Origin: Candidatus Altarchaeum sp.
Lineage (GTDB): Archaea > Altiarchaeota > Altiarchaeia > Altiarchaeales > Altiarchaeaceae
Direction of reading: 5' to 3'
NCBI GenBank assembly: GCA_018260615.1
Contig: JAGWDQ010000121.1
Location: forward strand, 1 to 25,795
DNA: 25,795 bases
The notes beneath the pieces were generated by a model. It had not been told where the DNA came from. It worked only from the letters and a program-made list of their open reading frames with translations, and ran no database searches. Position numbers and translations under genes: made by a program. The first letter of the stretch is position 1. Each line of letters opens with the position of its first letter. Positions 2 through 25,703 of the stretch are shown in pieces.

Positions 2-2689
2 CTGAATAAAAACACAGGGGAACTGCTCTGGAAATTTAAAACCGGAAGTGGTGTGTATTCATCACCTGCAATTTCAGGAAATTTTGTTTATGTTGGTTCT
101 TATGATAATCATACTTATTGTCTGAATAAAAACACAGGGGAACTGATATGGAAATTTAAAACCGGAAGTTATGTGGATTCATCACCTGCAATTTCAGGAA
201 ATTTCGTTTATGTTGGTTCTTCGGATGGTTATGTTTATGCGTTTGGTGAAAAACTGAAAACCTGCCATCATGAATGTTGTGTTAATCTTGAAGGATATGA
301 AAATAAAACATGTTCAAGTGATGATTTTTCCTGCACAAATAACACATGCGTGAAAGTTAAAAATAAAGAAAACGGCGAGATGTGTTCCGGGAATTCAGAA
401 TGTGAAAGCGGTAATTGTTTTAAAGGAGTATGTAAACCATTAGGATACGAATGTGACGCAAATTCTCCTTGTTCTTCGGGAAAATATTGTTCAAATAGCA
501 AATGTATGAATTTAAAGGAAATCAGTTCATCATGTTCCGGGAATTCAGAATGTGAAAGCGGTAATTGTTTTAAAGGAGTATGTAAACCATTAGGATACGA
601 ATGTGACGCAAATTCTCCTTGTTCTTCGGGAAAATATTGTTCAAATAGCAAATGTATGAATTTAAAGGAAATCAGTTCATCATGTTCCGGGAATTCAGAA
701 TGTGAAAGCGGTAATTGTTTTAAAGGAGTATGTAAACCATTAGGATACGAATGTGACGCAAATTCTCCTTGTTCTTCGGGAAAATATTGTTCAAATAGCA
801 AATGTATGAATTTAAAGGAAATCAGTTCATCATGTTCCGGGAATTCAGAATGTGGAAGTAAAAATTGTCAGAATGGGGTGTGCAAGCAAGAGGGTATGAA
901 TTCACGTTCGTTTTTAATTGTTGTAGTAGTTATCATTATAGTGATTGGAATTTTGGTTTATTTGGTCGATTTTTTACCCAATTATCCTATGGTGGAAAAT
1001 TTTTACAATAAATTTATAGAAAATTTTAAAGTCGATTTTTTACCCAATTATCCTGTGGTGAAGAGAAAAAAGAAATCTGTTATTGAAAACTACCCGGAAA
1101 AAATAAAACAGCAAAAAGACGAACTAAAAAGAAAGCTGGATTTGCTGAACACAGATGGTTTTGAATCCGATGCAGAGCAGTTAAAAATAGGGCTTGATAG
1201 TATCAAAAATGAATACGAAATTAAGGAGGTTGAGAGAAAAATTGATGAGTTGAAAAGAAAAATTGATGAAAGAAAGAGAATTAAAGCAGAACAGGAAAAA
1301 CAATTAATACAACAAAAAGAAGAACTACACAAAAATCTGTATTTATTGAACGCAGAGGGTTTTGAGTCTGATACAAAACAGTTAAAAATAGGGCTTGATA
1401 GTATCAAAAATGAATACGAAATTAAGGAAGTTGAGAGAAAAATTGATGAGTTGAAAAGAAAAATTGATGAAAGAAAGAGAATTAAAGCAGAACAGGAAAA
1501 ACAATTAGAACAGGAAAAACTAAAGCAGCAACAAGAAAGAATAAAAGCGGATGAATCAGAAAAAGAAAAATCAAAAAAACAGGACTATGCACCATTTCCC
1601 AGAACATTTCCTGATGGATTGAACAAATACTATTCAAACGCAGAATTCATTGGCGAAGGCGGATTTGCATTCGTATTTAAAGCTATGAGCAATGAAGATA
1701 AACGACTTGTTGCGATAAAAATACCAAAAGAGATGAATGAAAAGATGGATGACCTATTTTTAAGAGAAATTAGAATATGGGGTGAATTAGATCACAAGAA
1801 CATAGTCAAACTCTACAAAGCAAAGACCTATCCCTGCCATTATCTTGAAATTGAATATGTTGGTGGTGGTTCTTTAGAGAACATAAAAAAGCCGATTAAC
1901 ACTGAAAAGGCATCAAAACTGATTAATGATTTACTTGAGGGCTTAAGCGAAGCACATTCAAAAAATATATATCATCTTGATTTAAAGCCGGATAATATAT
2001 TGCTAACTTCGGATGGAGAGCTAAAGATAACCGACTGGGGTTTAAGTAAGATTGCAAAACATCCAACATCAGCAGGAGTCATAGGTGCCGTACACACGCC
2101 AATGTATTCTGTACCCGAATTAATATCTCCAAAGCGTTTTGGAAAAACAGATAACAGAACTGATATATTCCAGATTGGAACTATATTTTATGAACTTGTT
2201 ACTGGTGTGCACCCATTTGACGGCGATAGTTTTGATGAGATAATGATGAATATTTTAGAAGAAACACCCAAAAAGCCATCTGAAATAAATTCGGATGCAA
2301 AAAAACTTGATGCTCTTATAATGAAATGTCTTGAAAAGAAAAAGGAAGACAGGTATCAGAATGTTTCTGAACTGCAAAAGAACTTGGCAGAATATTTGAA
2401 AATAGAATATAACAAATCATTGAGTGAAAGTAAATTGAAGGGGGACCTAAAAAGGTCGTGCTCTTACTGTGGAGAACTTTTAAAGGTCTATGCATCTCAA
2501 AATGATATAGAAAACGCATTAACATACGCAATTGACTTAAAAAATTATGCTGAAGGTGAATATAAGAAGGAGATGGAAAATATAATAGAACAACTCAAAT
2601 ACAAAATGAAAGAAGAAATGGCTATCGATGATAAATTGCTACAACAGATAAATATTATTGCCCATCAGATTAAGATGAGAAGAGGATAA
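2..2689 (+). CDS. Receptor-like Ser/Thr protein kinase, 5'-truncated by the window: PQQ-type propeller blades, Cys-rich repeats, TM helix, 2 helical modules, Hanks kinase, C-terminal helical domain
   Basis: The frame is open from base 2 (LNKNTGELLWKFKTGSGVYSSP), so the GTG at 53 is not the true start. TM FLIVVVVIIIVIGILVYLV at ~911-964. Kinase motifs GEGGFA, VAIK, HLDLKPDNILL, DWG, SVPE, DIFQIG. Confidence 0.93.
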   Translation: MNKNTGELLWKFKTGSGVYSSPAISGNFVYVGSYDNHTYCLNKNTGELIWKFKTGSYVDSSPAISGNFVYVGSSDGYVYAFGEKLKTCHHECCVNLEGYENKTCSSDDFSCTNNTCVKVKNKENGEMCSGNSECESGNCFKGVCKPLGYECDANSPCSSGKYCSNSKCMNLKEISSSCSGNSECESGNCFKGVCKPLGYECDANSPCSSGKYCSNSKCMNLKEISSSCSGNSECESGNCFKGVCKPLGYECDANSPCSSGKYCSNSKCMNLKEISSSCSGNSECGSKNCQNGVCKQEGMNSRSFLIVVVVIIIVIGILVYLVDFLPNYPMVENFYNKFIENFKVDFLPNYPVVKRKKKSVIENYPEKIKQQKDELKRKLDLLNTDGFESDAEQLKIGLDSIKNEYEIKEVERKIDELKRKIDERKRIKAEQEKQLIQQKEELHKNLYLLNAEGFESDTKQLKIGLDSIKNEYEIKEVERKIDELKRKIDERKRIKAEQEKQLEQEKLKQQQERIKADESEKEKSKKQDYAPFPRTFPDGLNKYYSNAEFIGEGGFAFVFKAMSNEDKRLVAIKIPKEMNEKMDDLFLREIRIWGELDHKNIVKLYKAKTYPCHYLEIEYVGGGSLENIKKPINTEKASKLINDLLEGLSEAHSKNIYHLDLKPDNILLTSDGELKITDWGLSKIAKHPTSAGVIGAVHTPMYSVPELISPKRFGKTDNRTDIFQIGTIFYELVTGVHPFDGDSFDEIMMNILEETPKKPSEINSDAKKLDALIMKCLEKKKEDRYQNVSELQKNLAEYLKIEYNKSLSESKLKGDLKRSCSYCGELLKVYASQNDIENALTYAIDLKNYAEGEYKKEMENIIEQLKYKMKEEMAIDDKLLQQINIIAHQIKMRRG
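383..854 (+). repeat. Perfect 150-bp tandem repeat (3.1 copies) encoding a 50-aa, 8-Cys module
   Basis: gaattcagaatgtg starts at 391, 541, 691 and 841, with identical intervening sequence (CSGNSECESGNCFKGVCKPLGYECDANSPCSSGKYCSNSKCMNLKEISSS). Confidence 0.95.
1112..1507 (+). repeat. 201-bp tandem duplication encoding a 67-aa cytoplasmic helical module
   Basis: caaaaaga(c/a)gaacta at 1112 and 1313, ttaaaaatagggcttgatag at 1181 and 1382. Protein QKxEL..LLNxxGFESD..QLKIGLDSIKNEYEIKEVERKIDELKRKIDERKRIKAEQEKQL occurs twice. Confidence 0.9.
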
Positions 2690-2737
2690 TTATTAAAAAA
2701 TTTAGAATTAAAATTGCTCAAATTTTAAAAATAAAAA

Positions 2738-3538
2738 ATGGAGAACAACATATATAATATAATTTACTCTGGCAAAACAGAAAAAGGAATGAAGGAAAAT
2801 AATGAAGATGATTATGTAACAATCTCTTACGAGCGTAATAATGAGAATAAAGATAAAATTTATTTACTTGCTGTTGCAGATGGTCTCGGGGGACACGCAT
2901 CGGGTGAGCTTGCGAGCAAAATTGCAATTATGGAACTGCGGGAAACAATAAAGAGAAATTTAGAAGTTATGGATGTGAAAAATACAATCACAACCGAAAT
3001 GCTTAAGGACTTGCTTTTAAGCGGATTTAAAAAAGCCAGCGACGAAATTTTATATCAGGCGAAAATTATGCCCGGAAAAAAAGGCATGTGCACAACGATG
3101 GTTGCAGCATTAGTAAAAGAAAACGGCGAATGTGTCATAGCAAATGTCGGAGACAGCAGAGCTTATCTGATTGGTGACAAATCTCAAATCTGGCATACAA
3201 AAGACCACAGTTATGTTCAGTTACTGGTCGACATAGGAGAAATAACCGAAGAGGAAGCGTTTTCGCATTCAATGAAAAACCTGGTTGAAAAAGTACTCGG
3301 ACTTGAAGAAAACATAAAACCGGATTTATATGAGAAGAAAATTGAAGATGAAATTTTACTGCTAAGTTCAGACGGACTGCATGATTTTATAAGAGATGGA
3401 GAAATTAAGGACATTGTTTTAAAACAGGGAATTTCAGCAGCTGATATGTTGATTGAAAAAGCACTTGAAAATGAAAGCTACGACAATATTACAGTTGTTC
3501 TGGCCGGGAAAAAACAGGAAAAAGAAAATAATATATAA
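2738..3538 (+). CDS. PP2C/PPM-family Ser/Thr protein phosphatase (PrpC/Stp-like)
   Basis: Motifs AVADGLGGHASGELAS, GMCTT, ANVGDSRAY, TKDHS, LLLSSDGLHD, DNITVV. Lies between two kinase genes. Confidence 0.95.
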   Translation: MENNIYNIIYSGKTEKGMKENNEDDYVTISYERNNENKDKIYLLAVADGLGGHASGELASKIAIMELRETIKRNLEVMDVKNTITTEMLKDLLLSGFKKASDEILYQAKIMPGKKGMCTTMVAALVKENGECVIANVGDSRAYLIGDKSQIWHTKDHSYVQLLVDIGEITEEEAFSHSMKNLVEKVLGLEENIKPDLYEKKIEDEILLLSSDGLHDFIRDGEIKDIVLKQGISAADMLIEKALENESYDNITVVLAGKKQEKENNI

Positions 3539-3581: not shown

Positions 3582-6500
3582 ATGGAGCAAAAAATAAACC
3601 GGACAGGGAAGAGTGAACCGAATACAAAAATATTAAAATTTATTTTTCTGATTAGTATTTGTCTTATCCTGCTCCTGCCAATATCGTTGGCAGAGGACTG
3701 GCCAATGTTCAGGCATGATTTGGAACATACAGGGGAAACATCCGATGTTATTCAAAATCCGGAAAATATGGAATTGTTTTGGAAATTTAAAACAGGCGAC
3801 TGGGTGCGTTCATCACCATCAGTTTCAGGAGATTTTGTTTATGTTGGTTCTCAGGATAATTATGTCTATTGCCTGAATAAAAACACAAGTGAAGTGGTGT
3901 GGAAATTTAAAACGGACAATTGGGTGCGTTCATCACCTGCAATTTCGGAAAATTTCGTTTATGTTAGTTCTGAGGATGGTTATGTTTATTGTCTGAATAA
4001 AAACACAGGAAGATTAGTGTGGAAATTTAAAACGGACAATTGGGTGCGTTCATCACCTGCAATTTCGGAAAATTTCGTTTATGTTAGTTCTGAGGATGGT
4101 TATGTTTATTGTCTGAATAAAAACACAGGAAGATTAGTGTGGAAATTTAAAACGGACAATTGGGTGCGTTCATCACCTGCAATTTCGGAAAATTTCGTTT
4201 ATATTAGTTCCTGGGATAATTATATTTATTGTCTGAATAAAGACACAGGAGAAGTGATATGGAAATTTAAAACGGAAATGGCAGCGCGTTCATCACCTGC
4301 AATTTCCCAGAATTTTCTTTATTTCGGTTCTGATGATAATTATACTTATTGTCTGAATAAAAACACAGCAGAAGTGATATGGAAATTTAAGACAGAAAAA
4401 CCTGTTGATTCATCACCTGCAATTTCAGGAAATTTTATTTATCTCGGTTCTGATGACGGTTATGTCTATTGTCTGAATAAAAACACAGGGGGACTGCTCT
4501 GGAAATTTAAAACAGGCGACTGGGTGCGTTCATCACCTGCAATTTCAGGAAATTTTGTTTATGTCGGTTCTGCGGATGGCCATCTTTATTGTCTGAATAA
4601 AAACACAGGGGAACTGGTATGGAAATTTAACACAGGCAATTGGGTGCGTTCATCACCTGCAATTTCAGGAAATTTTGTTTATGTCGGTTCCTGGAATAAT
4701 TATGTTTATTGTCTGAATAAAAACACAGGGGAAGAGATATGGAAATTTAAAACCGGAAATTTTGTGTATTCATCACCTGCAATTTCAGGAAATTTTGTTT
4801 ATGTTGGTTCTGATGATAGTTATGTTTATGCGTTTGTTGCTCTAAAGTCAGTTAATTCATCGTGTTCTGCAAATTCGGAATGTAAAAGCGGCAATTGCTT
4901 TAAAGAAATGTGTAAAACACCGGGATATGGATGCAATTCGGACTCCGATTGTTTTTTGGAAAGATACTGTTCAAATAACAAATGCGTGAATTTAAAGGAA
5001 AATGGTTCAGCATGTTCCAGTGATTCGGAATGTGAAACAAAAATTTGTTTTAAAGGGGTATGTAAGGAACAGAGATATGAATGCAATTCGGACTCTGATT
5101 GTTCTTCGGGAAAATACTGTTTAAATAACACCTGCGAGGATTCAAAGAAAGTTTGTTTGATATGTTTTGCAAATTCAGAATGTGAAAGTAGTAATTGTTT
5201 TAAAGGAAAATGCAGGGAACAGGGAGTTGTGTGTGATTTGGATTCTGATTGTTCTTCAGGAAAATATTGTTCAAATAACAAATGCTTTTATTTAAAGCAA
5301 ATTGGTTCAGCATGTTTCAGGAATTCAGAATGTGAAAGTGGTAATTGTTTTAAAGGAATATGCAGAGAACAGGGATATATTGATTCAGTTTGGTTTTTAA
5401 TTATCGGAGGAGTTATCTTTCTGGCAATTGGAATTAAATTAGTGACGAAAAGAAAAAAGTATTTGTTTAGCTGGGATGATGTTCCCGAAAACAATACAGA
5501 ACTCATAAAATTTTTAATGTCTGACTTAAAAATAGAGTGGGTAGAAAATGCAGAAATCAGAAAAAATGATAATAACGAAACAATAACTGTTACAAGTAAA
5601 ACAAATTCAGCAAATTCAGTTACTTTCAAACTTAACAAAACAGAAAAGAAGGTGAGTTTATTTATTGAAAGAAGAACATACGAATACATTTTAAAAGAAG
5701 AAAATGGTAAGCTAAACATATACATAAAAGAGAAATTTGGCATTGAAAACTACCATGAAAAAATAAATCTGCAAAAAGACGAACTAAAAAGAAAGATGGA
5801 TTTGCTGAACAGGGAAGGTTTTGAGTCCGATGCGGAACAGTTAAAAACAGAGATTGAAAATATTAGAAATGAAGATGAAATCGGGGAAATTGAAGAAAAA
5901 GTGAATGCATTGAAAATAAGAATAGATGAGGAAAAGAGAATTAAAACGGAACAGGAAGAACAATCAAGACAACAAAAACTAACGCAACAAAAAGAAGAAC
6001 TACACAAAAAGCTGTATTTATTAGACCCAAAAGATTTTGAATCTGATGTGGAACAATTGAGATTTAAGATTGACCACATTGGAAATGAAAAAGATGTTAA
6101 GGAAATTGAAGAAAAAGTGAATGCATTGAAAACAAGAATAGATGAGGAAAAGAGAATTAAAGCGGAACAGGAGGGAATAAATCAGCAACAAGAAAGAACA
6201 AAAACAGAGGAATCAGAAAAAGAAAAACCAAAGAAACAGTACTATGCATCATTTTCAAAAACATTTCCGGATGAATTAAACAAATACTATTCAAACCCCG
6301 AATTTATCGGCGAAGGTGGTTTTGCTTATGTATTTAAAGCCGTGAGCAATGAATATAAACGACTTGTTGCAATAAAAATCCCAAAAGAGATGAATGAAAA
6401 GACAGGTGAATTGTTTTTGAAAGAGATATCCATTTGGAATTTCTTAAATCACAGGAACATTATTAAACTTTACAAAGCAAACATTTATCCCTGCCCTTAT

Positions 6501-7343
6501 CTTGAAATTGAATATGTTAATGGGAACTCTTTAGAGAACATAAAAAAGCCGATTGGTCTTGAAAAGGCATCAAAACTGATTAATGATTTACTTGAGGGCT
6601 TAAAAGAAGCACACTCAAAGAACATATATCATCTGGATTTAAAGCCGGATAATATATTGTTAACCTTGAATGGAGAGCCAAAGATAACCGACTGGGGTTT
6701 GAGTAAAATAGCAAAACATTCCAAATATTCAGCTGTTACAGGACAGACCATAATGTATTCTGCTCCTGAATTGATTTCTCCCGAGGATTTTGGAAAGGCA
6801 GATTGCAGAACCGACATCTTTCAAATTGGAACGATATTTTATGAACTTGTTACGGGAAAGAACCCGTTTGACGGTGACACGCAGAGTCAGATAATAACGA
6901 ATATTTTAATGAAAACACCAAAAAAACCCTCTGAAATAAATCCCGATACAAAAGAACTTGAGGGTATTATAATGAAATGCATTGAAAAGAAAAAAGAAAA
7001 CAGGTATCAGAATGTTTCAGAACTACAAAAGGACTTAACAGAATATTTAAAAATAAAGTATAAAGAATCATTGAGGGAAAGTAAATCCACAGGAGATATA
7101 AAAAGATCGAGTATTTATTGCGAGGAACTTTTAACGGTCTTTGTATCCCAAAATAACACAGAAGAAGCATTAAAATATGCGATTGACTTTAAAAATTATG
7201 CCAAAGGCGAATTTAAGAACGATATTGACAATATAATAGAACAACTCAAATACCGAATGAACGAAAAGATGGATATTGGCGATGAATTACAAAAAAAGAT
7301 AAACATTGTAACTTATCAGATTAAAATGGGGAGAGAAAATTAA
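3582..7343 (+). CDS. Receptor-like Ser/Thr protein kinase: signal peptide, 9 PQQ-type blades, Cys-rich repeats, TM, ~89-aa inserted domain, 2 helical modules, Hanks kinase, C-terminal helical domain
   Basis: Signal peptide KILKFIFLISICLILLLPISLA-EDW. Nine SSP..G.FVY.GS.D..VYCLNKNTG blades. TM VWFLIIGGVIFLAIGIKLV. Kinase GEGGFA/VAIK/HLDLKPDN/DWG/SAPE. Confidence 0.95.
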   Translation: MEQKINRTGKSEPNTKILKFIFLISICLILLLPISLAEDWPMFRHDLEHTGETSDVIQNPENMELFWKFKTGDWVRSSPSVSGDFVYVGSQDNYVYCLNKNTSEVVWKFKTDNWVRSSPAISENFVYVSSEDGYVYCLNKNTGRLVWKFKTDNWVRSSPAISENFVYVSSEDGYVYCLNKNTGRLVWKFKTDNWVRSSPAISENFVYISSWDNYIYCLNKDTGEVIWKFKTEMAARSSPAISQNFLYFGSDDNYTYCLNKNTAEVIWKFKTEKPVDSSPAISGNFIYLGSDDGYVYCLNKNTGGLLWKFKTGDWVRSSPAISGNFVYVGSADGHLYCLNKNTGELVWKFNTGNWVRSSPAISGNFVYVGSWNNYVYCLNKNTGEEIWKFKTGNFVYSSPAISGNFVYVGSDDSYVYAFVALKSVNSSCSANSECKSGNCFKEMCKTPGYGCNSDSDCFLERYCSNNKCVNLKENGSACSSDSECETKICFKGVCKEQRYECNSDSDCSSGKYCLNNTCEDSKKVCLICFANSECESSNCFKGKCREQGVVCDLDSDCSSGKYCSNNKCFYLKQIGSACFRNSECESGNCFKGICREQGYIDSVWFLIIGGVIFLAIGIKLVTKRKKYLFSWDDVPENNTELIKFLMSDLKIEWVENAEIRKNDNNETITVTSKTNSANSVTFKLNKTEKKVSLFIERRTYEYILKEENGKLNIYIKEKFGIENYHEKINLQKDELKRKMDLLNREGFESDAEQLKTEIENIRNEDEIGEIEEKVNALKIRIDEEKRIKTEQEEQSRQQKLTQQKEELHKKLYLLDPKDFESDVEQLRFKIDHIGNEKDVKEIEEKVNALKTRIDEEKRIKAEQEGINQQQERTKTEESEKEKPKKQYYASFSKTFPDELNKYYSNPEFIGEGGFAYVFKAVSNEYKRLVAIKIPKEMNEKTGELFLKEISIWNFLNHRNIIKLYKANIYPCPYLEIEYVNGNSLENIKKPIGLEKASKLINDLLEGLKEAHSKNIYHLDLKPDNILLTLNGEPKITDWGLSKIAKHSKYSAVTGQTIMYSAPELISPEDFGKADCRTDIFQIGTIFYELVTGKNPFDGDTQSQIITNILMKTPKKPSEINPDTKELEGIIMKCIEKKKENRYQNVSELQKDLTEYLKIKYKESLRESKSTGDIKRSSIYCEELLTVFVSQNNTEEALKYAIDFKNYAKGEFKNDIDNIIEQLKYRMNEKMDIGDELQKKINIVTYQIKMGREN
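3897..4202 (+). repeat. Perfect 120-bp tandem repeat (~2.5 propeller blades)
   Basis: Lines 3901, 4021 and 4141 are identical, as are 3961 and 4081. First divergence is at 4203. Confidence 0.95.
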
Positions 7344-11002: not shown

Positions 11003-11275
11003 ATGAATGCAAAAAGTGATATATTTGCCACAATCTCTATTGCACCGCACAGCATCAGAAATCTGAAGAAGAAACTTCCCCACACAACATCAACCATCTA
11101 TGAGGTTTCCGAGGATCTGGTGTGTGAAGGACTGGCTGTGGCAGGAAGAGAACATGGAAATGTAGTTATTGATGTGGCAAGTACCTGTTGCGCCCGGAAG
11201 TTAAGGGAAATTTATTTAAAATCTCTAAATTACTCCAAAAAGGACAATTCTAATTTTATATATTTTTACCAATAA
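11003..11275 (+). CDS. Possible small hypothetical protein (90 aa)
   Basis: ATG-started ORF co-oriented with its neighbours, with a locally GC-richer core. No recognisable motif. Confidence 0.3.
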   Translation: MNAKSDIFATISIAPHSIRNLKKKLPHTTSTIYEVSEDLVCEGLAVAGREHGNVVIDVASTCCARKLREIYLKSLNYSKKDNSNFIYFYQ

Positions 11276-11882: not shown

Positions 11883-14800
11883 ATGAAAAACATAAATAAA
11901 AATTTAAAATATATAATATTTGTGGGTTTGCTCCTTGTCGGAGTTGTGGGAATTGTAGCATTGAGCGGATGTATTAATAAATGCGGGGATTTGGATCAGA
12001 ACTGTTGTGAGAAAGATAAATGTAATTCCGGCGATTTGGTTTGCGGGGATAATAAATGTGTCTATTGCGGCGGTGTTTATGAGTCCTGTTATAAAGATAA
12101 CAAATGCGATAATGGAGTATGTTCTAATGGAAAGTGTGAAAAATGCGGAAAGATTGAGGAGTTATGTTGTTCGGGAGGTATATGCAATAGCGGAATATGT
12201 TCTAAAGGAAGGTGTGAAAAATGCGGAAAGATTGAGGAGTTATGTTGTTCGGGAGGTGTATGCAATAGCGGAATATGTTCCAAAGGAAGGTGTGAAAAAT
12301 GCGGTAATGCGGGTGAATTATGCTGTTCGGGAGGTGTATGTAATACAGGAGTATGTTCTAATGGAAAGTGTGAAAAATGCGGCATGGTTGGTGAATTATG
12401 CTGTTCGGGAGGTGTATGTAATACGGGAGTATGTTCTAATGGAAAATGCACTGCTAAAACTACTACACAAACCACTTTGCCAGTTAAACCGATCAAAATA
12501 GAATGCGAAAAAGTAGATGACTATTCTGTCGGAGACCCAAACATTTTTAGAACTAGTGCATCCAATAGTAAAGTTCTCGGCCAGTTTGGATGCGAATGTA
12601 AATCACCATATAATTCTAAATCCGGATATGCGAAGTATAATGTACAAATATCCGATACAGGCAACTGGAGTATTGATATCAGATATTCCTGCAACAATGC
12701 TCATTCTGTTCCGATTGAAATTTATATTGACGATGAACAAAAACCCCGTGCAAAATTTTATCCAAAAAATACATACGATTGGAATTCTTTCAAAGACAGC
12801 GGCAAAATTGATATTGGCTCAATTACTGCAGGTTCTCATTTCATTACATTTAAAACCGAGGGAGCAAGGTATGGTGTAGCGGACATGGATTATTTTGTAT
12901 TACAAGTTAAAGAAACATCTATTTCAGAAATTTCAACCACTTCGTCAGGTGGATCATCATATAGTAGTGAACAATCTCAGCAACAATCAGTACCAGTATA
13001 TAGAACCTCAACCACTTCATCAGGTGGATCATCATATAGTAGTAAACAATCTCAGGAGCAATCTACATCATATACGATTCCGATCACCTCGTCAGATAAA
13101 TTTCTACTTATAAGAGAATGTGAAGATGTAGATGCTTATACCGTTGGTGATCCTACTACTACAAGACCAGGTGCATCCAAACAGAAAGTTCTTGGACAAT
13201 TTGGTTGTTATGGTTATGCGCCCTATAGTCCCAAACCTGGATATGCAAAGTATAATGTAAAAATACCTGAGGCTGGCATTTGGAATATCAGCATCAGATA
13301 TTCCTGCAACAATTTTCCTTCCGTCCCAATAGAAATTTATGTTGACGATGAACAAAAACCCCGTGCAAAATTTTATACGGAAAATACGTACGACTGGAAT
13401 TCTTTTAAAGAAACAGGTATAATTAATTTAGGTTTAATTACTGATGGTTCTCATTCCATTACATTCAAAACCGGGGGGGCAATGTATGGTGTTGCTGATT
13501 TGGATTACTTCGTATTATACTTCGGAGAACTTCCCATCCCTTCAAATACTTCGTCAACCAGATGTAACTATTATTGTTATACCTGTGATAACTGTAAATC
13601 AAAGATAAATTCTGCGGGTGCCGGAGAAACAATTTGTTTGAATTGGAACATACGCAACCATGTGGGAACTTGCATCAACAATCCATTAAACTTCAGCAAC
13701 AAAATTTTTGATTGTCGGGGACATACGATACAAGGTAATAGTTCAGGTGATGGAATTTATTTGAATGGAAAATCGAATAATACAATCCGAAACTGTATAA
13801 TTACTAATTTCACTACCGGAATTAACTTCCAGTATGTTAATTCTTCTATAATTGAGAACAACACAATTAGTCATATAATAGATTACGGGATAGTGTTGCA
13901 TCTTTACAGCAATAATATTGTCGTAAGGAATAACAATATCTCTCAAAGTAGGGTTGGAATAGTCCCATCAGGCGGCAATGGCCATGACTGGTCTGAAAAT
14001 GTTAACTCAAGCTACATAATTGAAAACAATATTATTCGTGATGTAGTACAAGGGATTCACCTATATGATTCAACCAGATATAATTTGATTACTAATAACT
14101 CTGTTTTTAATGCTGCATCTTCATGTTTTAGTTCAGACAGGGGTTTTGAGAGTAGATTTGAGAACAATACCTGCGAAAACAGTTATATTGGAATTAATCT
14201 TGTTCTTTATGCAAAAGATAATTACTTTAAGAATAATGATATTAGGAACAGTTCTATTGGAATACGATTTGAACATTGGGGCTCTGACAATAACAACGTG
14301 TTTAAGAACATGAATCTTTCAAATTCTTCTCTATATGCAGTTTATTTTGAATCCGGTTCTGGGTCTCTAAATAACACATTTATTAATGTAACCTACAATC
14401 CGGATAAGGAAAGAATGAATTCTTCCTCTGAACTTATCCGTAAATGGTATTTGGATGTAAATGTGGAAGATATTAATGGCGTTCCATTCAACAATGCAAA
14501 TGTTTCGACGTATAATGTTAGCGGAGATATACAGTTTTCTGTTTTAACAAATGCTTTGGGAAACATAGAAAGACAGGAAGTTATAGAGTATATCAACAAT
14601 GCGGGGGTACGGAATTTTTACACAAATTATACAATCAATATCACAAAAACAGGATATAGTAATTATTCAGCGATTATGAATATTAGCAATAATGCTGCTC
14701 TTTTTGTTATTTTATCTAAAACACTCAACGATAGCGAATTAATAGAAAATATGATGAATAACACATGGAATTATCTCAAAAATTTTAATGAAAATAACCT

Positions 14801-16504: not shown

Positions 16505-17299
16505 ATGAAAAACACAGATAAAAATTTAAAATATATAATATTTGTGGGTTTGCTCCTTGCAGGAGTTGTGGGAATTGTGGCATTGAGCGGATGTATTGAT
16601 AAATGCGGGGATTTGGATCAGAACTGTTGTGAGAAAGATAAATGTAATTCCGGCGATTTGGTTTGCGGGGATAATAAATGTGTGCATTGCGGCAGTGTTT
16701 ATGAGTCCTGTTGTAAAAACAACAAATGCGATAAGGGAATATGTTCTGAAGGGAAATGTGAAAAATGCGGCAAGGTGGGCGAATTATGCTGTTCGGGAGA
16801 TGTATGTGATAATGGAGTATGTTCTAATGGAAAATGCACTGCTAAAACCACTGAACAAACACCTCTTCCTAAACCACCGGATACTTTGCCAGTTAAACTA
16901 ATCAAAAGAGAATGCGAAAGTGTAGATGACTATTCTGTTGGAGACCCAAATAACATTTTTAGAACCGGCGCATCAAATGGTAAGGTTCTTGGCCAGTTTG
17001 GATGCGAAGGTAAATCACCATATAATTCTAAATCCGGCTATGCGAAGTATAATGTACAAATATCCGATACAGGCAACTGGAGTATTGATATCAGATATTC
17101 CTGCAACAATGCTCATTCTGTTCCGATTGAAATTTATATTGACGATGAACAAAAACCCCGTGCAAAATTTTATCCAAAAAATACATACGATTGGAATTCT
17201 TTCAAAGACAGCGGCAAAATTATAGTGAAAATGCTAACCTTTGATACTAATACCGAACTCGTGCGCATTAAATTAAAGCATCAAAAGTTGATATTTTGA
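16505..17299 (+). pseudogene. Truncated duplicate of the 11883 lipoprotein gene (signal/lipobox, 3 Cys units, incomplete CBM)
   Basis: Leader and N-terminus match 11883. 17039-17221 is identical to 12627-12809. Homology stops abruptly after DSGKI (17221) and a 25-aa unrelated tail follows. Confidence 0.8.
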
Positions 17300-18158: not shown

Positions 18159-20993
18159 ATGAGCGGAAGCGACTGGGAAATGCGAGGGCATGATTTGGAA
18201 CATACAGGAGAAACATCGGATGTAATTAAAAATCCGAAAAACCTAAAACTGAAGTGGAAATTTGAAACCGGAAGTAGTGTGTATTCATCACCTGCAATTT
18301 CAGGAAATTTCGTTTATGTTGGTTCTCATGATAATTATGTTTATTGTCTGAATAAAAACACAGGGGAACTGCTCTGGAAATTTAAAACCGGAAGTTATGT
18401 GGATTCATCACCCGCAATTTCGGGAAATTTTGTTTATGTCGGTTCTGATGATAATTATGTTTATTGTCTGAATAAAAACACAGGGGAACTGGTATGGAAA
18501 TTTAAAACCGGAAATTGGGTGTATTCATCACCCGCAGTTTCAGGAAATTTTGTTTATGTCAGTTCTTATGATAATTATGTTTATTGTCTGAATAAAAACA
18601 CAGGGGAACTGGTATGGAAATTTAAAACCGGAAATTGGGTGTATTCATCACCCGCAGTTTCAGGAAATTTTGTTTATGTCAGTTCTTATGATAATTATGT
18701 TTATTGTCTGAATAAAAACACAGGGGAACTGGTATGGAAATTTGAAACCGGAAATTGGGTGTATTCATCACCCGCAGTTTCAGGAAATTTCGTTTATGTT
18801 GGTTCTAGGGATAGTTATGTTTATTGTCTGAATAAAAACACAGGGGAACTGGTATGGAAATTTAAAAAAAACACAGGGGAACTGATATGGAAATTTAAAA
18901 CAGGCGACTGGGTGCGGTCATCACCCGCAATTTCGGGAAATTTTGTTTATGTTGGTTCTTATGATAGTTATGTTTATTGTCTGAATAAAAACACAGGGGA
19001 ACTGGTATGGAAATTTGAAACCGGAAATGGTGTGTATTCATCACCTGCAATTTCAGGAAATTTTGTTTATGTCAGTTCTTGGGATGATTATGTTTATTGT
19101 CTGAATAAAAACACAGGGGAACTGCTCTGGAAATTTGAAACCGGAAATGGTGTGTATTCATCACCCGCAATTTCAGGAAATTTTGTTTATGTTGGTTCTT
19201 TGGATAATTATGTTTATGCGTTTGAAGCAGAGCCAGTCATAGAGGAATGGCAAAAAGAAGAACTGAAAAGAAAACTAAATTCGCTGAATACAGAAGGTTT
19301 TGAATCTGATGTGGAACATTTAAAATTGAGAATTGGAGAGGTTGAAAATGAAAATGATGTTAGGGGAATTGAAGAAAAAATAAAAGAGTTGAAAATAAAG
19401 GTTGATGAGAGAATACGGATTAAAAAAGAGACGGAAAGGCGATTAGAAGAGCAAAAACTACGCCTGCAAAAAGAAGAACTACACGAAAAGCTGGACTTAT
19501 TGAATGTAGAGGGTTCAGGATTAGAATCTGATGCAGCACATTTAAAGGTAAGGATAGACAATATTAAAAGTGAATATGAAGCGGAGGAAATAGAGAAAAA
19601 GATAAACGAGTTAAAAATAAGGGTTGATGAAGAAAAGAGAATTAAAAAGGAACAGGAAAAATTGCGGAAACAAAAAGAATTATATGGGAAATTGTATTCA
19701 CTGAACACAGAAGGTTTTGAATCTGAAGGGGAACAGTTAAAACTGGGAATTGCACGGATTGAAAATGAAAACGATATTAAGGAAATTGATGAAAAATTAA
19801 AAGAATTGAAAGTAAAAACTGAAGAAAAGAAGAGAATTGAAGCAGAACGGGAAAAATTAAAACAGGAGAAAGAAGAACAAAAACCAGAAAAAAAACAGCC
19901 AACTATGTTATTCCCGGGAACATTTCCTGATGGATTAAAAAAATATTACGATAATTCCGAATTTATCGGCGAAGGTGGATTTGCTTATGTATTTGGGGCA
20001 ATACGCAATGAAGACAATAAAGCTGTTGCAATAAAAATCCCCAAAGAGATGAATGACAAAATAGGCGAACTATTTTTAAAGGAAATTAGGATATGGGGCG
20101 ACTTGCATCATAAAAACATAGTCAAACTCTACAAGGCAAACATTTATCCCTGTCCTTATCTTGAAATTGAATATGTTGATGGAGGGTCTTTAGATGGCAT
20201 AAGCAAACCGGTTAGCGTTGAAAAGGCATCAAAACTGATTAATGATTTACTTGATGGCTTAAAAGAGGCGCATTCAAAAAACATATATCATCTTGATTTA
20301 AAGCCGGAAAATGTATTATTAACTTCGGATGGAGAACCAAAGATAACCGACTGGGGTTTAAGTAAGATAGCAAAACATTCAAAATACTCTAAAGTTGCGG
20401 GACACACATTAATGTATGCCGCTCCCGAGTTATTTTCTCCCGAGGATTTTGGAAAAGCGGATTGTAGAACAGATATATTTCAAATTGGAACTATATTTTA
20501 TGAACTTGTTACGGGAAAGAACCCTTTTGACGGAGATACGCAACAGCAAATACTGATGAATATTTTAATGAAAAAACCAAAAAAACCGTCTGAAATAAAT
20601 CCCGCCGCAAAAGAACTTGATGTTCTTATACTGAAATGTCTTGAAAAGAAAAAGGAAAACAGGTATCAGAATGTTTCTGAACTGCAAAATGCGCTGATTT
20701 CCTATATGAAAACAGAATATAAAAAATCGTTTACTGAAAGTAAATTAAGGGGAGATGTAAAAAGGTCATGTTTTTATTGCGGGGAACTTGTTAAATCCAG
20801 CGCTAAAACTCGTGATATGGTTGAGACATTGAAGTGGATAAATGATTTTAAGGACTATGCAAAAGGCGAAGATGCCAAAGATATAAAAAACATAATAAAT
20901 GAACTTGTTCAGAGGATGGAAAATAAGCTGGAAATTACAGACGAATTAACAGGAAAAATTGAAGTCGTTGTGCATCATATACAGATGCAATAG
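18159..20993 (+). CDS. Soluble (no signal, no TM) PQQ-propeller Ser/Thr kinase: 8 blades, 3 helical modules, Hanks kinase, C-terminal helical domain
   Basis: Starts MSGSDWEMRGHDLEHTGETSDV, directly at the mature propeller. The last blade (YVYAFEA) runs straight into EWQKEELKRK. Kinase GEGGFA/VAIK/HLDLKPEN/DWG/AAPE. Confidence 0.93.
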   Translation: MSGSDWEMRGHDLEHTGETSDVIKNPKNLKLKWKFETGSSVYSSPAISGNFVYVGSHDNYVYCLNKNTGELLWKFKTGSYVDSSPAISGNFVYVGSDDNYVYCLNKNTGELVWKFKTGNWVYSSPAVSGNFVYVSSYDNYVYCLNKNTGELVWKFKTGNWVYSSPAVSGNFVYVSSYDNYVYCLNKNTGELVWKFETGNWVYSSPAVSGNFVYVGSRDSYVYCLNKNTGELVWKFKKNTGELIWKFKTGDWVRSSPAISGNFVYVGSYDSYVYCLNKNTGELVWKFETGNGVYSSPAISGNFVYVSSWDDYVYCLNKNTGELLWKFETGNGVYSSPAISGNFVYVGSLDNYVYAFEAEPVIEEWQKEELKRKLNSLNTEGFESDVEHLKLRIGEVENENDVRGIEEKIKELKIKVDERIRIKKETERRLEEQKLRLQKEELHEKLDLLNVEGSGLESDAAHLKVRIDNIKSEYEAEEIEKKINELKIRVDEEKRIKKEQEKLRKQKELYGKLYSLNTEGFESEGEQLKLGIARIENENDIKEIDEKLKELKVKTEEKKRIEAEREKLKQEKEEQKPEKKQPTMLFPGTFPDGLKKYYDNSEFIGEGGFAYVFGAIRNEDNKAVAIKIPKEMNDKIGELFLKEIRIWGDLHHKNIVKLYKANIYPCPYLEIEYVDGGSLDGISKPVSVEKASKLINDLLDGLKEAHSKNIYHLDLKPENVLLTSDGEPKITDWGLSKIAKHSKYSKVAGHTLMYAAPELFSPEDFGKADCRTDIFQIGTIFYELVTGKNPFDGDTQQQILMNILMKKPKKPSEINPAAKELDVLILKCLEKKKENRYQNVSELQNALISYMKTEYKKSFTESKLRGDVKRSCFYCGELVKSSAKTRDMVETLKWINDFKDYAKGEDAKDIKNIINELVQRMENKLEITDELTGKIEVVVHHIQMQ
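18448..18743 (+). repeat. Perfect 120-bp tandem repeat (~2.5 blades)
   Basis: Lines 18481 and 18601 are identical, as are 18541 and 18661. Diverges at 18447 and 18744. Confidence 0.9.
18834..18899 (+). repeat. In-frame 33-bp duplication inside a propeller blade (KNTGELVWKFK KNTGELIWKFK)
   Basis: Units 18834-18866 and 18867-18899 differ by one base. Confidence 0.9.
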
Positions 20994-21062: not shown

Positions 21063-21097
21063 ATAAAATCTATATTACAAAAAGTATAATGTGAATA

Positions 21098-22630
21098 ATG
21101 GCTTTACCAATAAATATCAAGGACCTGATAACCGGGCAGACAGTTGAATGGGAGCGTATTGAATTTAAAGAAGGTTGGAATCCGGAAGATGTTATGCACA
21201 CCATTTGTGCGTTTGCTAATGATATAAACAACTGGGGCGGAGGATACATAATCATCGGAATAAAAGAAGATAACGGACGGCCTGTTTTACCTCCAAAAGG
21301 ATTAGCCCCTGAAACAATTAATAATATCCAGAAGGACTTGCTAAATCTTTGTAATCGTTTAAAACCGCATTTTTTCCCAATTGCCGAGCCGGTGCGTTTT
21401 CAGGGAAAATATGTTTTAATAATATGGGTTTTTGGCGGGCAGAACAGACCCTATCGGGCGCCGATATCGCTTGGCAAAAAGAAAGAGAAAGAGTATGCCT
21501 ATTATATCAGAAGATTTTCAAATACAGTTAAAGCACAATTTGAAGATGAAAAAGAACTCCTGTCATTAGCAGGAACAATTCCTTATGATGATCGTATCTG
21601 TCATTTAGCAGATGTCGCTGACTTAAAACTTCCGCTGATACAATCTTTTTTAAAAGAAGTTGAAAGTGATTTATATGGTTCTGCTAACATGGATTTCGAA
21701 CAATTATGCTGGCAGATGAGGATTGTTGACGGAACTACCGAATATGTGAAACCCCGAAATGTCGGAATACTTTTTTTCAATGACCTGCCTCAAAGATTTA
21801 TCCCTCTTTCGCAGATTGAAATCGTTCAATTTAAGTCAACTCCGGGCGCAGATAGATTGAGTGAAAAAATTTTTCAGGGACCCATACATCAGCAAATCAG
21901 GGATGCTCTAACCTATCTGAAAAATATTGTTCTTAAGGAATATATTCGTAAAGTTTCGGATAGGGCAGAATCTGTCAGATTTTATAATTACCCGTATATT
22001 GCTCTAAAAGAAGGTCTTGTTAATGCAATGTATCACAGAAGTTATGAAATCAGAGAACCGGTGGAAATACGTATTCATCCCGATAAAATTGAGATTCTCA
22101 GCTTTCCGGGACCCGACAAGTCAATAAAACAATCAGACCTGGATAAGGGAATATTGGTTGCCAGAAGATATCGTAATCGTAGAATTGGTGAATTTTTAAA
22201 AGAACTGAAACTTACCGAAGGACGATGTACCGGGATTCCTAAAATTAGAAAAGGAATGAAAAAGAATGGCTCACCGGAACCTATTTTTGAAACAGATGAT
22301 GGACGAAGTTATTTTTTAACTACATTAATGATTCATCCGGAAGCAACAATAAGTGAGCAAGAAAGTCCACAAGAAAGTGTGCAAGTAAGTGAGCAAGTAA
22401 GTGAGCAAGTAAGTGAGCAAGTAATTCAAATTCTTAAGTTTTGTAAAATACCTCAAAAAAAGCAGGAAATATTAACTAGCATTGGACTTTCAACTGCTTA
22501 TATGAATTATAAAAGATATATATTCCCTCTTGTTCAAGAGGGGGTGTTGTCAATGACACATCCTGAAAATCCAAGACATTGGAATCAAAAATATGTAACC
22601 ACCAATAAGGGCTTAAAAATTATAGAATAA
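21098..22630 (+). CDS. AlbA_2 (Schlafen-like) + HATPase_c_4 (RecG C-terminal-like) + C-terminal wHTH protein
   Basis: EWERIEFKEGW, TICAFAND...GGGYIIIGIKE (AlbA_2). EGLVNAMYHRSY, RRYRNRRIGEFLKEL.LTEGRCTGIPKI (HATPase_c_4). QVSE linker repeats, then wHTH ending HPENPRHWNQKY. Confidence 0.9.
   Translation: MALPINIKDLITGQTVEWERIEFKEGWNPEDVMHTICAFANDINNWGGGYIIIGIKEDNGRPVLPPKGLAPETINNIQKDLLNLCNRLKPHFFPIAEPVRFQGKYVLIIWVFGGQNRPYRAPISLGKKKEKEYAYYIRRFSNTVKAQFEDEKELLSLAGTIPYDDRICHLADVADLKLPLIQSFLKEVESDLYGSANMDFEQLCWQMRIVDGTTEYVKPRNVGILFFNDLPQRFIPLSQIEIVQFKSTPGADRLSEKIFQGPIHQQIRDALTYLKNIVLKEYIRKVSDRAESVRFYNYPYIALKEGLVNAMYHRSYEIREPVEIRIHPDKIEILSFPGPDKSIKQSDLDKGILVARRYRNRRIGEFLKELKLTEGRCTGIPKIRKGMKKNGSPEPIFETDDGRSYFLTTLMIHPEATISEQESPQESVQVSEQVSEQVSEQVIQILKFCKIPQKKQEILTSIGLSTAYMNYKRYIFPLVQEGVLSMTHPENPRHWNQKYVTTNKGLKIIE
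22381..22424 (+). repeat. 12-bp tandem repeat gcaagtaagtga x3.7 (QVSE linker)
   Basis: Units at 22381, 22393, 22405 and a partial at 22417, with degenerate copies just upstream. Confidence 0.9.
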
Positions 22631-23133: not shown

Positions 23134-23142
23134 TAAACTAAA

Positions 23143-25113
23143 ATGGCAATATTTGAGGGGGTTAACTGGGAAAAAATTAATGAATTGTTGAGACCTGCAG
23201 TCAGGATTTTAAATGAAGATATAGCGGACTTAAAGAGATGGGACGAACCGGATTTGTTTGGACAGTGGAATAAAATAAAGAGCAATTATGAGACATTTAT
23301 GGAGGATTATAGCAATTCCCTGCCAGATGGTATAGAAATAGACATCAGGGCAAGGTTTAAATTTGCTATGTTAAAAATTGCGACGGCTTTTTATGTTAAT
23401 GGTAAAGAAAGAGAAGGAATAACAAATAAATTCTATGAAAAGGAAAAGCATCTTGTTGTAGATTTGGATGATTTTAAGGCATTTGATTTCCTGACGGTTG
23501 AGGAAATAGTTGGCAAAGTGGCGAGAAGTGAAGGAAAAATTTATGAAATTGTTAAAAAATATGCCGAGAGAGGATACAATAACATGGATAAGGTGCTTGA
23601 CGATATTGAAAATATTTCAAAAGATGTAATGTATTATGTGAAGAAAGAATATTCCAAAATGCTGAAAAAAATTGAAGCGGCAGTAATTGAGTATATGAAA
23701 AATTATCCCGGGGGGATTCATATAGTGATTGGCGAACTTGAAAACAAGATAAAGGAAGTTAACGGATTTGACGAAAAAAGAAAAACAGAGATAAATAATG
23801 CGAATGAAACCCTGAAAACAATGGAAAGCAAATTGTCTGATGCCGATACGGATAAACGAAACCTTGAAAACAAAATATCTCAGCTTGAATGGGAGAGATT
23901 ACAGGGAAAACAGGAAAAAGACACCTTAAATGAAAAGATAAATGACATTGAATCCGAGAAAAATCGCCTTTTAAAGAGTTATTCTGAGATTGAAAGCAGA
24001 TGGGACGAAAGATATAAAGAACTTGAAAAAATACGAAACGAATTAAATACGGAGCAAGACACGTTGAACTCACTGAAAGAAAACTATAAACAGGACCTTA
24101 AAGAGGAAAACCAGAGGAAAATTGAGGAAGAATTAAAAAAGATTGAAGAAATGAAATCGGCATTAACAAAAAAAGAATATGATTTACAAACTGAAAAAGA
24201 ACTAATGAAAAATGAAGGGGCTAAAATTAATGAGAAGATTGAGACCCTAAAGAAATTAGAGGAGGGAATAGTTGAAAGATATGTAATGAGCGGCGATGCA
24301 AAAATTTATGAATTAAACTATATCGGAAGATTTAATGAAAAAATGTATTCATTCCCTCTGAATATATACGACCCCATTGATAAAAAAGAACATACTGTAA
24401 ATTCATGGAATAAACATGAAAAATTCACACAGGAAATGGAAATTTATGAAAAATTTAAAACAAAGATGAGTTATAATGAAATTTTTAATACAATTCCGCT
24501 TGGAACAACATCTGTATATAAAATAACCAAAAAGAAATTTGTATTTTTCGGGGAGGAAAAAACAAAGATCGTAATTGAAGCAGCAACATTAAATCACTGG
24601 AATAATTATTGCGAAATTGGTTTTGACACGAATCCCGCGACGCTTTCCGAGCTTACATCTGTGCTGATGAGCCGCATAGACAGGGCGGAACTTGGAAATT
24701 ACTTCCATGTAATCGGGATTTCATCGCCAACAGGATGGAGCAAAAAAGTGCTTGAGTATGTAGAGTCAGATGAATTTCATAAAAATTTCACAGACAGGCA
24801 TGTGTCAATATGTTTAATAGATCCTGAAACAGGGGAGATATTTTATAACCGGACTGATAAACGACTTGCGCAGTTTGAGGAGTTTTTTAAGCCGGAATTT
24901 GACAGCGAAAAGGTTGAAAAATGCAAAAAGGTTATAAAGGAAGATTTAATTATAGATGAATTTGTTACGGTGAATGAGATCGCGGAGAAAAATGCAGATA
25001 AAAATTTTGACAAGCGAATTGTTAAAAAAGCAATGTATGAACTTGAAAAAGAAGGGGTTGGAAATATTAAGTTTGTAGAAGGGGTTGGATTTGGGTTTAA
25101 GAAGAAGGGGTGA
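23143..25113 (+). CDS. Hypothetical protein: helical N-terminal domain, long coiled coil, alpha/beta (possibly restriction-endonuclease-like) domain, C-terminal winged helix
   Basis: E/K-rich heptad stretch at ~aa 190-375. DAKIYELNYIGRF, YFHVIGISSPTGWS, ICLIDPETGEIFYN. Tail FVTVNEIAEK..DKRIVKKAMYELEKEGVG has a wHTH pattern. Confidence 0.85.
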   Translation: MAIFEGVNWEKINELLRPAVRILNEDIADLKRWDEPDLFGQWNKIKSNYETFMEDYSNSLPDGIEIDIRARFKFAMLKIATAFYVNGKEREGITNKFYEKEKHLVVDLDDFKAFDFLTVEEIVGKVARSEGKIYEIVKKYAERGYNNMDKVLDDIENISKDVMYYVKKEYSKMLKKIEAAVIEYMKNYPGGIHIVIGELENKIKEVNGFDEKRKTEINNANETLKTMESKLSDADTDKRNLENKISQLEWERLQGKQEKDTLNEKINDIESEKNRLLKSYSEIESRWDERYKELEKIRNELNTEQDTLNSLKENYKQDLKEENQRKIEEELKKIEEMKSALTKKEYDLQTEKELMKNEGAKINEKIETLKKLEEGIVERYVMSGDAKIYELNYIGRFNEKMYSFPLNIYDPIDKKEHTVNSWNKHEKFTQEMEIYEKFKTKMSYNEIFNTIPLGTTSVYKITKKKFVFFGEEKTKIVIEAATLNHWNNYCEIGFDTNPATLSELTSVLMSRIDRAELGNYFHVIGISSPTGWSKKVLEYVESDEFHKNFTDRHVSICLIDPETGEIFYNRTDKRLAQFEEFFKPEFDSEKVEKCKKVIKEDLIIDEFVTVNEIAEKNADKNFDKRIVKKAMYELEKEGVGNIKFVEGVGFGFKKKG

Positions 25114-25184
25114 AAAAATTCGGTGAAAAAATAAATTTTAATGAAAATTTAAATTTAACAACAAAAATTTATCAAATATAAAAT

Positions 25185-25703
25185 ATGGGCTTTTTAGACT
25201 GGTTATCCGGCACTACGGCAAATATTAAAATGGAGTCAATAAACCCGGAGAAAATATCGGTGGCAGGGGACTGGGAAATGTTTGGGCATGATTTGGAACA
25301 TACGGGAGAAACATCGGATGTAATTAAAAATCCGGAAAACCTAAAACTGAAGTGGAAATTTAAAACCGGAAGTTATGTGCGTTCATCACCCACAATTTCA
25401 GGAAATTTTGTTTATGTTGGTTCTTGGGATGGTTATGTTTATTGTCTGAATAAAAACACAGGGGAACTGATATGGAAATTTGAAACCGGAAGTGGTGTGT
25501 GGTCATCACCCGCAATTTCAGGAAATTTTGTTTATGTTGGTTCTTATGATAGTTATGTTTATTGTCTGAATAAAAACACAGGGAAACTGCTCTGGAAATT
25601 TCAAACCGGAAATTATGTGTCTTCATCACCCGCAATTTCAGGAAATTTTGTTTATGTTGGTTCTAATGATAGTTATGTTTATTGTCTGAATAAAAACACA
25701 TAG
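25185..25703 (+). pseudogene. Truncated PQQ-propeller paralog (3 blades) with an N-terminal amphipathic motif
   Basis: MGFLDWLSG...DWEMFGHDLEHTGETSDV, 3 blades, then ...CLNKNT followed by TAG at 25701 and unrelated sequence where gggga would be expected. Confidence 0.75.

What the first reader, a model, noticed from the sequence alone, without database searches (positions are those of the whole stretch)
2..25703. Expanded, modular receptor-kinase signalling locus with phosphatase, decoy receptor and soluble sensor
Seen: five paralogs built from one parts kit (propeller, Cys repeats, TM, 67-aa helical module, kinase, C-terminal domain) in different combinations: two full receptor kinases, one kinase-less receptor, one TM-less kinase and one truncated propeller, with a PP2C between the first two. 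Established: ectodomain-TM-Hanks kinase plus a cognate PP2C is the logic of plant RLK and bacterial PknB/PrpC signalling. Inference: this is a prokaryotic (probably archaeal) receptor-like-kinase family that is diversifying its ligand recognition, with membrane, decoy and cytoplasmic variants analogous to RLK/RLP/RLCK classes, possibly sensing viruses, symbionts or surface glycans. Single membrane kinases are known in archaea. I do not know of this full combination being described, but cannot confirm novelty.
Basis: partly seen in the sequence, partly recalled or inferred. Interest (0 to 1): 0.85.

Follow-up and report, generated by a model that had tools for sequence, protein, structure and literature searches.

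The report
Altiarchaeal ESCRT locus with hypervariable kinases
This cluster of receptor-like kinases is the sensor arm of an archaeal ESCRT membrane-remodelling system that has already been catalogued; what is new is that its propeller-shaped sensor domains change fast at the ligand-binding face, as immune receptors do.

Summary
The modular paralogs are real and recur in several independent assemblies. They are not a stand-alone receptor-kinase system. The host is Ca. Altiarchaeum. The window's first 49 bases overlap a contig that carries a Vps4-type ATPase and two ESCRT-III-like genes. That paper describes the associated membrane kinases, phosphatase and C-terminal helical domain, and lists Altiarchaeales members. 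The 'truncated propeller' is a second soluble kinase broken by an insertion sequence; it is intact in other strains.

Not in that paper: the 40-aa blades are homogenised except at five loop positions, with omega 7.4 here and 3.7 in a second species, against 0.2-0.3 elsewhere. Kinase-less receptors that keep the C-terminal domain also recur in an unrelated ESCRT locus. The system is patchy (2 of 61 class genomes) and is decaying in a sister species, which suggests conflict-driven sensing coupled to membrane remodelling; ligand and output are untested. The scan earlier noted this genome's Vps4 trio and similar kinase-ESCRT islands in bacteria.

The parts
2..2689 (+). K1: type-I membrane Ser/Thr kinase (arCOG03682-like); the 5' part with signal peptide is on contig C70
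   Evidence: full length 1005-1135 aa in L021, L027, L030
2738..3538 (+). PP2C/PPM phosphatase
   Evidence: PF00481 E 2e-16; 44% identical to the PP2C domain in the T. barophilus ESCRT locus
3582..7343 (+). K2: signal peptide, 9-blade PQQ-like propeller, Cys repeats, TM, mobile 95-aa insert, helical modules, non-RD kinase, CTD
5460..5744 (+). ~95-aa in-frame insert inside K2, with copies in about 10 unrelated ORFs of the genome
7873..10833 (+). D3: kinase-less receptor that keeps the CTD; 8-blade propeller; CBM11-like domain at about 9364-9825
   Evidence: (CBM_11 E 1e-6)
11003..11275 (+). 90-aa ORF, conserved in other assemblies, weak winged-helix hit
11304..11831 (+). arCOG08177 (inactive Cas2-like plus TBP-fold domain), Main-clade ESCRT marker
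   Evidence: 83.5% identical to OIQ05980/PIV28043, which the paper lists as arCOG08177; E 6e-18 to T. barophilus TBCH5v1_RS07770
11883..16415 (+). N-terminally anchored surface protein: Cys repeats, two CBM6-like domains, beta-helix, PF10091 glycoamylase-like domain
16505..17299 (+). short paralog of the above (Cys repeats plus CBM6-like domain); C-terminus altered relative to the 274-aa allele in L023
17335..17844 (+). DUF6036 nucleotidyltransferase (toxin-antitoxin type insert)
18159..20993 (+). S4: soluble propeller-helical-kinase-CTD protein
21098..22630 (+). Schlafen AlbA_2/HATPase gene in a cassette bracketed by ~170-bp direct repeats (20897-21067 and 22968-23137)
23143..25113 (+). arCOG09748 (coiled coil, globular domain, C-terminal winged helix), Main-clade ESCRT marker
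   Evidence: E 1e-39 over the full length to T. barophilus TBCH5v1_RS07775 = arCOG09748; PKP57656 of HGW-Altiarchaeales-1 is listed in the paper
25185..25703 (+). S5 stub: N-terminus of a second soluble kinase interrupted by an IS; 906 aa when intact
25696..25795 (.). end of an insertion sequence shared with the ends of contigs C78, C129, C145, C73 and C48

Best explanation
The window is the middle of a ~35-kb co-directional 'Main'-clade ESCRT locus of Ca. Altiarchaeum: 197-aa ESCRT-III-like gene, Vps4, 152-aa Snf7-like gene, K1, PP2C, K2, D3, arCOG08177, glycan-binding surface proteins, S4, arCOG09748, S5. Membership of this clade is close to shown (about 0.9).

Likely mechanism (about 0.5; each step inferred):
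(1) Propellers outside the cytoplasmic membrane (K1, K2, D3) and in the cytoplasm (S4, S5) bind variable ligands on their top face; D3's CBM11-like domain may bind glycans.
(2) Binding clusters the proteins through the helical modules and activates the non-RD kinases.
(3) The C-terminal five-helix domain, kept even when the kinase is lost, docks the proteins on each other or on ESCRT adaptors.
(4) Phosphorylation triggers local ESCRT-III/Vps4 remodelling (shedding, sealing or sorting a membrane patch), and the PP2C resets it.
The diversifying surface, birth-and-death turnover and patchy presence point to non-self ligands (virus, epibiont or foreign cell surface) rather than a fixed housekeeping cargo.
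For: Contig join and single-contig loci. Homology to the annotated T. barophilus ESCRT locus: arCOG08177, arCOG09748, Vps4 (E 4e-60), Snf7 arCOG09749/09747 (E 4e-15 and 2e-13 against 18 proteins). The paper's description and tables. Vps4_C above cut-off on the C70 ATPase. Variation concentrated at blade positions 8, 9, 11, 26, 28, which lie in the D-A and B-C loops of the model (pLDDT 94, BamB-like 8-blade fold). Codon model: omega 7.4 vs 0.30 (33 unique blades, 2dlnL 110) and 3.7 vs 0.22 in a second species not used to choose the sites (10 blades, 2dlnL 15.8); tree-free allele counts 36 amino-acid vs 2 synonymous, and 19 vs 1. A kinase-less SP+TM+CTD receptor sits between arCOG09748 and a kinase in an unrelated ESCRT locus. 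This Vps4 is found in 2 of 61 class genomes and arCOG09748 in 1 of 61; the Vps4 is broken in the sister species. FtsZ-family genes lie elsewhere in the genome.
Against: No ligand, substrate or phenotype is known. Pfam MIT and Snf7 do not hit the genome, so ESCRT-III identity rests on arCOG-level homology and a features-only Atlas lead. Blades recombine, which can inflate omega on a single tree, and the sites were picked on this genome (only the second species is independent). Short-read assemblies misbuild such repeats (PMC12222747), so differences in blade number are soft. Highly repetitive propellers are common in many contexts (PMC9218822). Thermococcus homologs have diverged, non-repetitive blades, so hypervariability is not a feature of the whole system. 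Most comparison genomes are incomplete.
Confidence: 0.55

Rival explanations
1. Cargo sorting or vesicle biogenesis without conflict (the reading of Makarova et al.): the kinases mark cargo by phosphorylation and the propellers bind own proteins.
For: The paper proposes that phosphorylation is key for Main-clade systems and that PQQ-like or Ig-like domains bind cargo in the adaptin-type systems. DNA-filled vesicles were seen on Ca. A. hamiconexum cells (PMC10504349).
Against: Fixed self cargo does not predict omega well above 1 at the binding face, IS knock-out of S5, a broken Vps4 in the sister species, or a match in only 2 of 61 class genomes.
Confidence: 0.25
2. A stand-alone PknB/PrpC- or RLK-like signalling array that happens to lie beside ESCRT genes.
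For: Receptor topology, a cognate PP2C, non-RD catalytic loops, and many different N-terminal domains in the family.
Against: The ESCRT marker genes are interleaved among the kinase genes here, and the same linkage holds in T. barophilus, in L032/L033 and across the paper's tables.
Confidence: 0.12
3. Kin or strain recognition in biofilms (self versus non-self between Altiarchaeum strains), with membrane remodelling as the output.
For: The same pattern of homogenised repeats with hypervariable top-face codons marks the fungal allorecognition genes het-d and het-e; alleles differ between assemblies.
Against: No cognate polymorphic ligand gene was identified; the soluble kinases cannot see neighbouring cells.
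Confidence: 0.06
4. Cell-division machinery, or an assembly artefact.
For: ESCRT (Cdv) divides cells in TACK archaea; the repeats break contigs at both ends of the window.
Against: FtsZ-family genes are present; the system was not found in most relatives searched; the paralogs are 71-80% identical in the kinase and recur in independent assemblies.
Confidence: 0.02

Closest known systems
'Main' clade archaeal ESCRT system with STK and STP (Makarova et al. 2024, mBio, PMC10936438); example T. barophilus CH5 TBCH5v1_RS07770-RS07820
   Same: Vps4, two ESCRT-III-like genes, arCOG09748, arCOG08177, several membrane kinases with a small C-terminal helical domain, PP2C; Altiarchaeales proteins are in their tables (PKP60341, PKP60342, PKP60869, PKP60872, PKP60874, PKP57656).
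   Different: The paper describes N-terminal TM plus Ig-like repeats as typical. Here the ectodomains are recently amplified PQQ-like propellers with Cys repeats before an internal TM, and there are soluble and kinase-less forms, a stand-alone PP2C, HLD loops and diversifying selection. I found none of these discussed in the text sections I read.
Fungal HNWD NLRs het-d/het-e (PMC12222747) and prokaryotic highly repetitive propellers (PMC9218822)
   Same: Near-identical ~40-aa blades, a few hypervariable codons at the binding face, repeat-number variation, broken copies.
   Different: PQQ-like rather than WD40 blades; no NACHT/STAND domain; the output is a kinase beside ESCRT; some propellers are extracytoplasmic. 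Analogy, not membership.
Bacterial PknB/PrpC and plant RLK/RLP/RLCK, including non-RD pattern receptors (own knowledge)
   Same: Ectodomain-TM-Hanks kinase with a PP2C; kinase-less and soluble variants; non-RD loop.
   Different: No PASTA or LRR ectodomain; an extra C-terminal domain; ESCRT linkage; the kinases group with archaeal arCOG03682-type kinases.

Membership tests
Main-clade archaeal ESCRT | Vps4-type AAA ATPase in the locus | tested here: met
   C70 ATPase: AAA E 3e-38, Vps4_C above cut-off; 34% over 380 aa to T. barophilus Vps4; same contig as the kinases in L021, L027, L030
Main-clade archaeal ESCRT | MIT domain on Vps4 (the paper accepts MIT or ESCRT neighbours) | tested here: inconclusive
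   Pfam MIT not hit; the helical N-terminal region aligns with the T. barophilus Vps4 N-terminus; not folded
Main-clade archaeal ESCRT | ESCRT-III/Snf7 genes | tested here: inconclusive
   The 152-aa protein matches T. barophilus arCOG09749 and arCOG09747, and the paper lists Altiarchaeales Snf7 proteins; the 197-aa protein has only an Atlas lead to Snf7 clusters, 0.94; Pfam Snf7 not hit; fold not predicted
Main-clade archaeal ESCRT | arCOG08177 gene | tested here: met
   83.5% identical to OIQ05980/PIV28043
Main-clade archaeal ESCRT | arCOG09748 gene | tested here: met
   full-length match, E 1e-39, to TBCH5v1_RS07775
Main-clade archaeal ESCRT | Vps4 falls in the Main clade of the Vps4 tree | not tested
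   no Vps4 tree was built; Altiarchaeales Vps4 proteins are in the paper's set
ESCRT-linked STK (arCOG03682) | Hanks kinase followed by a ~100-aa helical domain | tested here: met
   364 representatives match the CTD profile
ESCRT-linked STK (arCOG03682) | CTD has a PCI/winged-helix fold | tested here: inconclusive
   The model has five helices and no strands; fold searches give only generic bundles and TPR-like solenoids, Z up to 9.9
Receptor-like kinase (works like) | signal peptide, ectodomain, single TM, intact kinase motifs | tested here: met
   K1 and K2
Receptor-like kinase (works like) | ligand-induced kinase activation | not testable with these tools
   needs biochemistry
Diversity-generating retroelement target | reverse transcriptase and adenine-specific variation | tested here: not met
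   no RVT_1 match in the 87% complete genome; variant codons such as TGG, CGT, GGT and TAT are not adenine-only changes

The most novel reading that the evidence does not exclude
An archaeal innate-immune-like surveillance system: surface and cytoplasmic pattern receptors with propellers under arms-race selection signal through non-RD kinases to an ESCRT-III/Vps4 machine that sheds or seals membrane where a virus or epibiont attaches.
Probability: 0.3. Interest if true: 0.82.

Novelty: new variant of a known kind. Interest (0 to 1): 0.55.

Why it matters
No function is established for Main-clade euryarchaeal-type ESCRT systems; the only paper found that names them is the comparative one. Diversifying selection on the sensors, plus gain and loss between sister species, gives a specific and testable function: conflict or non-self sensing coupled to membrane remodelling. 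It can be tested in cultured Thermococcales that carry the same system. If true, receptor kinases and ESCRT were linked for surveillance outside Asgard archaea and eukaryotes. If not, the locus is a local expansion of a catalogued system.

Tried and rejected
Complex prediction of the CTD with the C-terminal half of arCOG09748: no verdict, score 0.00; not evidence either way. CTD fold searches found no specific relative; PCI was not listed, and the Vps28 C-terminal domain at Z 8.0 is within the generic range. DGR as the source of variation was rejected. IQ-TREE partition fits with a free scale per partition could not separate omega from rate at the five sites; they were replaced by a shared-synonymous-rate model. 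The metagenome scan gave one distant locus. One exact look-up failed. The promoter and terminator scan was at chance level and uses a bacterial consensus. The Atlas gave nothing above 0.84 for the 95-aa insert. Literature searches found no paper on Altiarchaeum ESCRT function or on archaeal propeller receptor kinases; the library lacks most subscription papers. That K1 and K2 correspond to PKP60874 and PKP60872 is inferred from accession spacing relative to PKP60869 and from gene order, not looked up.
Full report
Observation. All long ORFs run on the + strand at about 33% GC. Pfam and hydropathy confirm the parts kit. K1 (2-2689) and K2 (3582-7343) have a propeller, Cys repeats, one TM, helical modules, a kinase and a ~100-aa C-terminal domain (CTD). 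D3 (7873-10833) has the same ends but no kinase, plus a CBM11-like domain. S4 (18159-20993) has no signal peptide or TM. A PP2C lies between K1 and K2. The genome holds four kinase domains of this family, three here and one on contig C59, and one such PP2C. All four kinases read HLDLKPxN and DWG. Among the best 120 homologs 56 are HRD and 30 HLD, so the non-RD loop is shared with part of the family.

Host. The genome is archaeal. The closest named relative of the 175-aa gene, at 86%, is Ca. Altarchaeum sp. CG2_30_32_3053, and cluster members are Altiarchaeales.

Both ends of the window mislead. Bases 1-49 overlap contig C70 exactly. C70 supplies K1's signal peptide and, upstream on the same strand, a 152-aa helical protein, a 487-aa AAA ATPase and a 197-aa helical protein. 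At the other end, the last ~100 bases are an IS end shared with five other contigs. A second assembly shows the other IS end followed by the rest of the gene, with an ~8-bp target duplication. In two further assemblies the gene is an intact 906-aa soluble kinase whose 3' part is 99% identical to C59. So the fifth paralog is a knocked-out second soluble kinase. Single contigs of 78, 45 and 35 kb show the whole order, which excludes an artefact.

What it is. A homolog search returned archaeal kinases with the same CTD and very varied N-termini (PEGA, TPR, HEAT, kelch, PQQ, lectin-like) from Thermococcales, Archaeoglobi and methanogens. In T. barophilus CH5 they lie with a Vps4, three Snf7-like genes, a PP2C and two genes that match window genes 11304-11831 and 23143-25113. 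Makarova et al. 2024 label those two arCOG08177 and arCOG09748, present in all 'Main'-clade ESCRT systems. They state that many such loci encode membrane Ser/Thr kinases with a small C-terminal helical domain and a phosphatase. Their tables include Altiarchaeales Vps4, Snf7, arCOG08177, arCOG09748 and kinases, and a protein 83.5% identical to the window's 175-aa gene is one of their entries. The C70 ATPase has Vps4_C above cut-off and the 152-aa protein matches the T. barophilus Snf7 arCOGs. Pfam MIT and Snf7 do not fire. The gene combination is therefore known, at the level of prediction only.

What this locus adds. (1) The Altiarchaeum kinases form one clade (100/100; 87 rows, hits beyond P0075 left out): a local expansion with domain shuffling. 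(2) The 40-aa blades are nearly identical, synonymous sites included, except at positions 8, 9, 11, 26 and 28 (position 1 varies conservatively). The model (pLDDT 94, 8-blade BamB-like fold) puts these in the D-A and B-C loops, which form the top, ligand-binding face of propellers (established knowledge). With a shared synonymous rate, omega at these sites is 7.4 against 0.30 in this species, and 3.7 against 0.22 in the sister species, which was not used to pick the sites. Tree-free allele counts agree. Recombination among blades and short-read assembly are caveats. K1 and S4 differ between strains at these positions, whereas K2 and D3 are nearly fixed apart from repeat number. The pattern matches fungal het-d/het-e sensors and recently amplified propellers linked to immunity or self-recognition. 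No DGR was found. (3) The CTD is a five-helix domain with no specific structural relative. Of 137 new profile hits, 104 have a full kinase, 15 a partial one and 18 none; about nine of the last are long proteins with TPR, HEAT, SPFH or TM ectodomains. One, with signal peptide, TM and CTD, sits between arCOG09748 and a kinase in an unrelated ESCRT locus. So D3's architecture recurs and the CTD is an independent module; adaptor or co-receptor fits as well as decoy. (4) The system is accessory. This Vps4 was found in 2 of 61 class genomes and arCOG09748 in 1 of 61, most of them incomplete. In the sister species one allele of the locus has shrunk to a split 197-aa gene, a split Vps4, the Snf7-like gene and one two-blade kinase. 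FtsZ-family genes are present elsewhere. Toxin-antitoxin nucleotidyltransferases and a Schlafen cassette interrupt the locus.

Mechanism. Shown: gene content, topology by sequence, intact catalytic motifs, linkage to ESCRT genes, selection signal, turnover. Inferred: ligand binding at the top face, clustering, kinase activation, CTD-mediated docking, phosphorylation of ESCRT parts, membrane remodelling, reset by PP2C. I put ESCRT membership at about 0.9, functional coupling to variable non-self ligands at about 0.5, and a specifically antiviral or anti-epibiont role at about 0.3.

Verdict. Real, but the system type is already catalogued, including this lineage. It is a new variant: an expanded receptor arm with immune-like diversification, which makes the unknown function of Main-clade ESCRT testable. 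Interest 0.55.

Noticed in passing
window 5460-5744; G000 C44, C131, C60, C109, C53, C84, C96, C125, C129: A ~90-aa in-frame insert starting with a YLFxWxDVP motif occurs inside K2 and about 10 unrelated ORFs, sometimes in tandem. By eye the hosts include Lon-like, RadC-like and Cas3-like proteins. No Pfam or Atlas match; it looks like a mobile coding element.
   Followed up: partly
window 20897-21067 and 22968-23137: A ~170-bp direct repeat of the S4 3' end (97.7% identical) brackets the Schlafen AlbA_2 cassette, like an integration scar; a 92% identical copy of the gene lies on C96.
   Followed up: partly
window 11883-17299; L023 762-2439: Anchored Cys-rich surface proteins with CBM6-like domains, one with a beta-helix and a PF10091 domain, sit inside the ESCRT locus. 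L023 has an extra 280-aa paralog missing from the window, and the window's 264-aa gene loses its end at that point.
   Followed up: partly
G000:C60 8710-11749: Three strong Tubulin/FtsZ-family domains in tandem, two of them in one 837-aa open frame; eight matches in the genome.
   Followed up: no
window 25696-25795; C48, C45: An IS with ~23-bp imperfect terminal inverted repeats and several copies in the genome; family not determined.
   Followed up: partly
L015 1876-1973 (G000:C70): A decayed propeller-blade relic between Vps4 and the 152-aa gene, suggesting a lost paralog.
   Followed up: no
L034 452-1453; L032 7607-9334: An SPFH domain fused to the kinase-type CTD, and a Vps4-like ATPase fused to a DAC (diadenylate cyclase) domain, in related material.
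   Followed up: no
P0002, P0003, P0004, P0008, P0009, P0010: Family members with two kinase domains in tandem.
   Followed up: no
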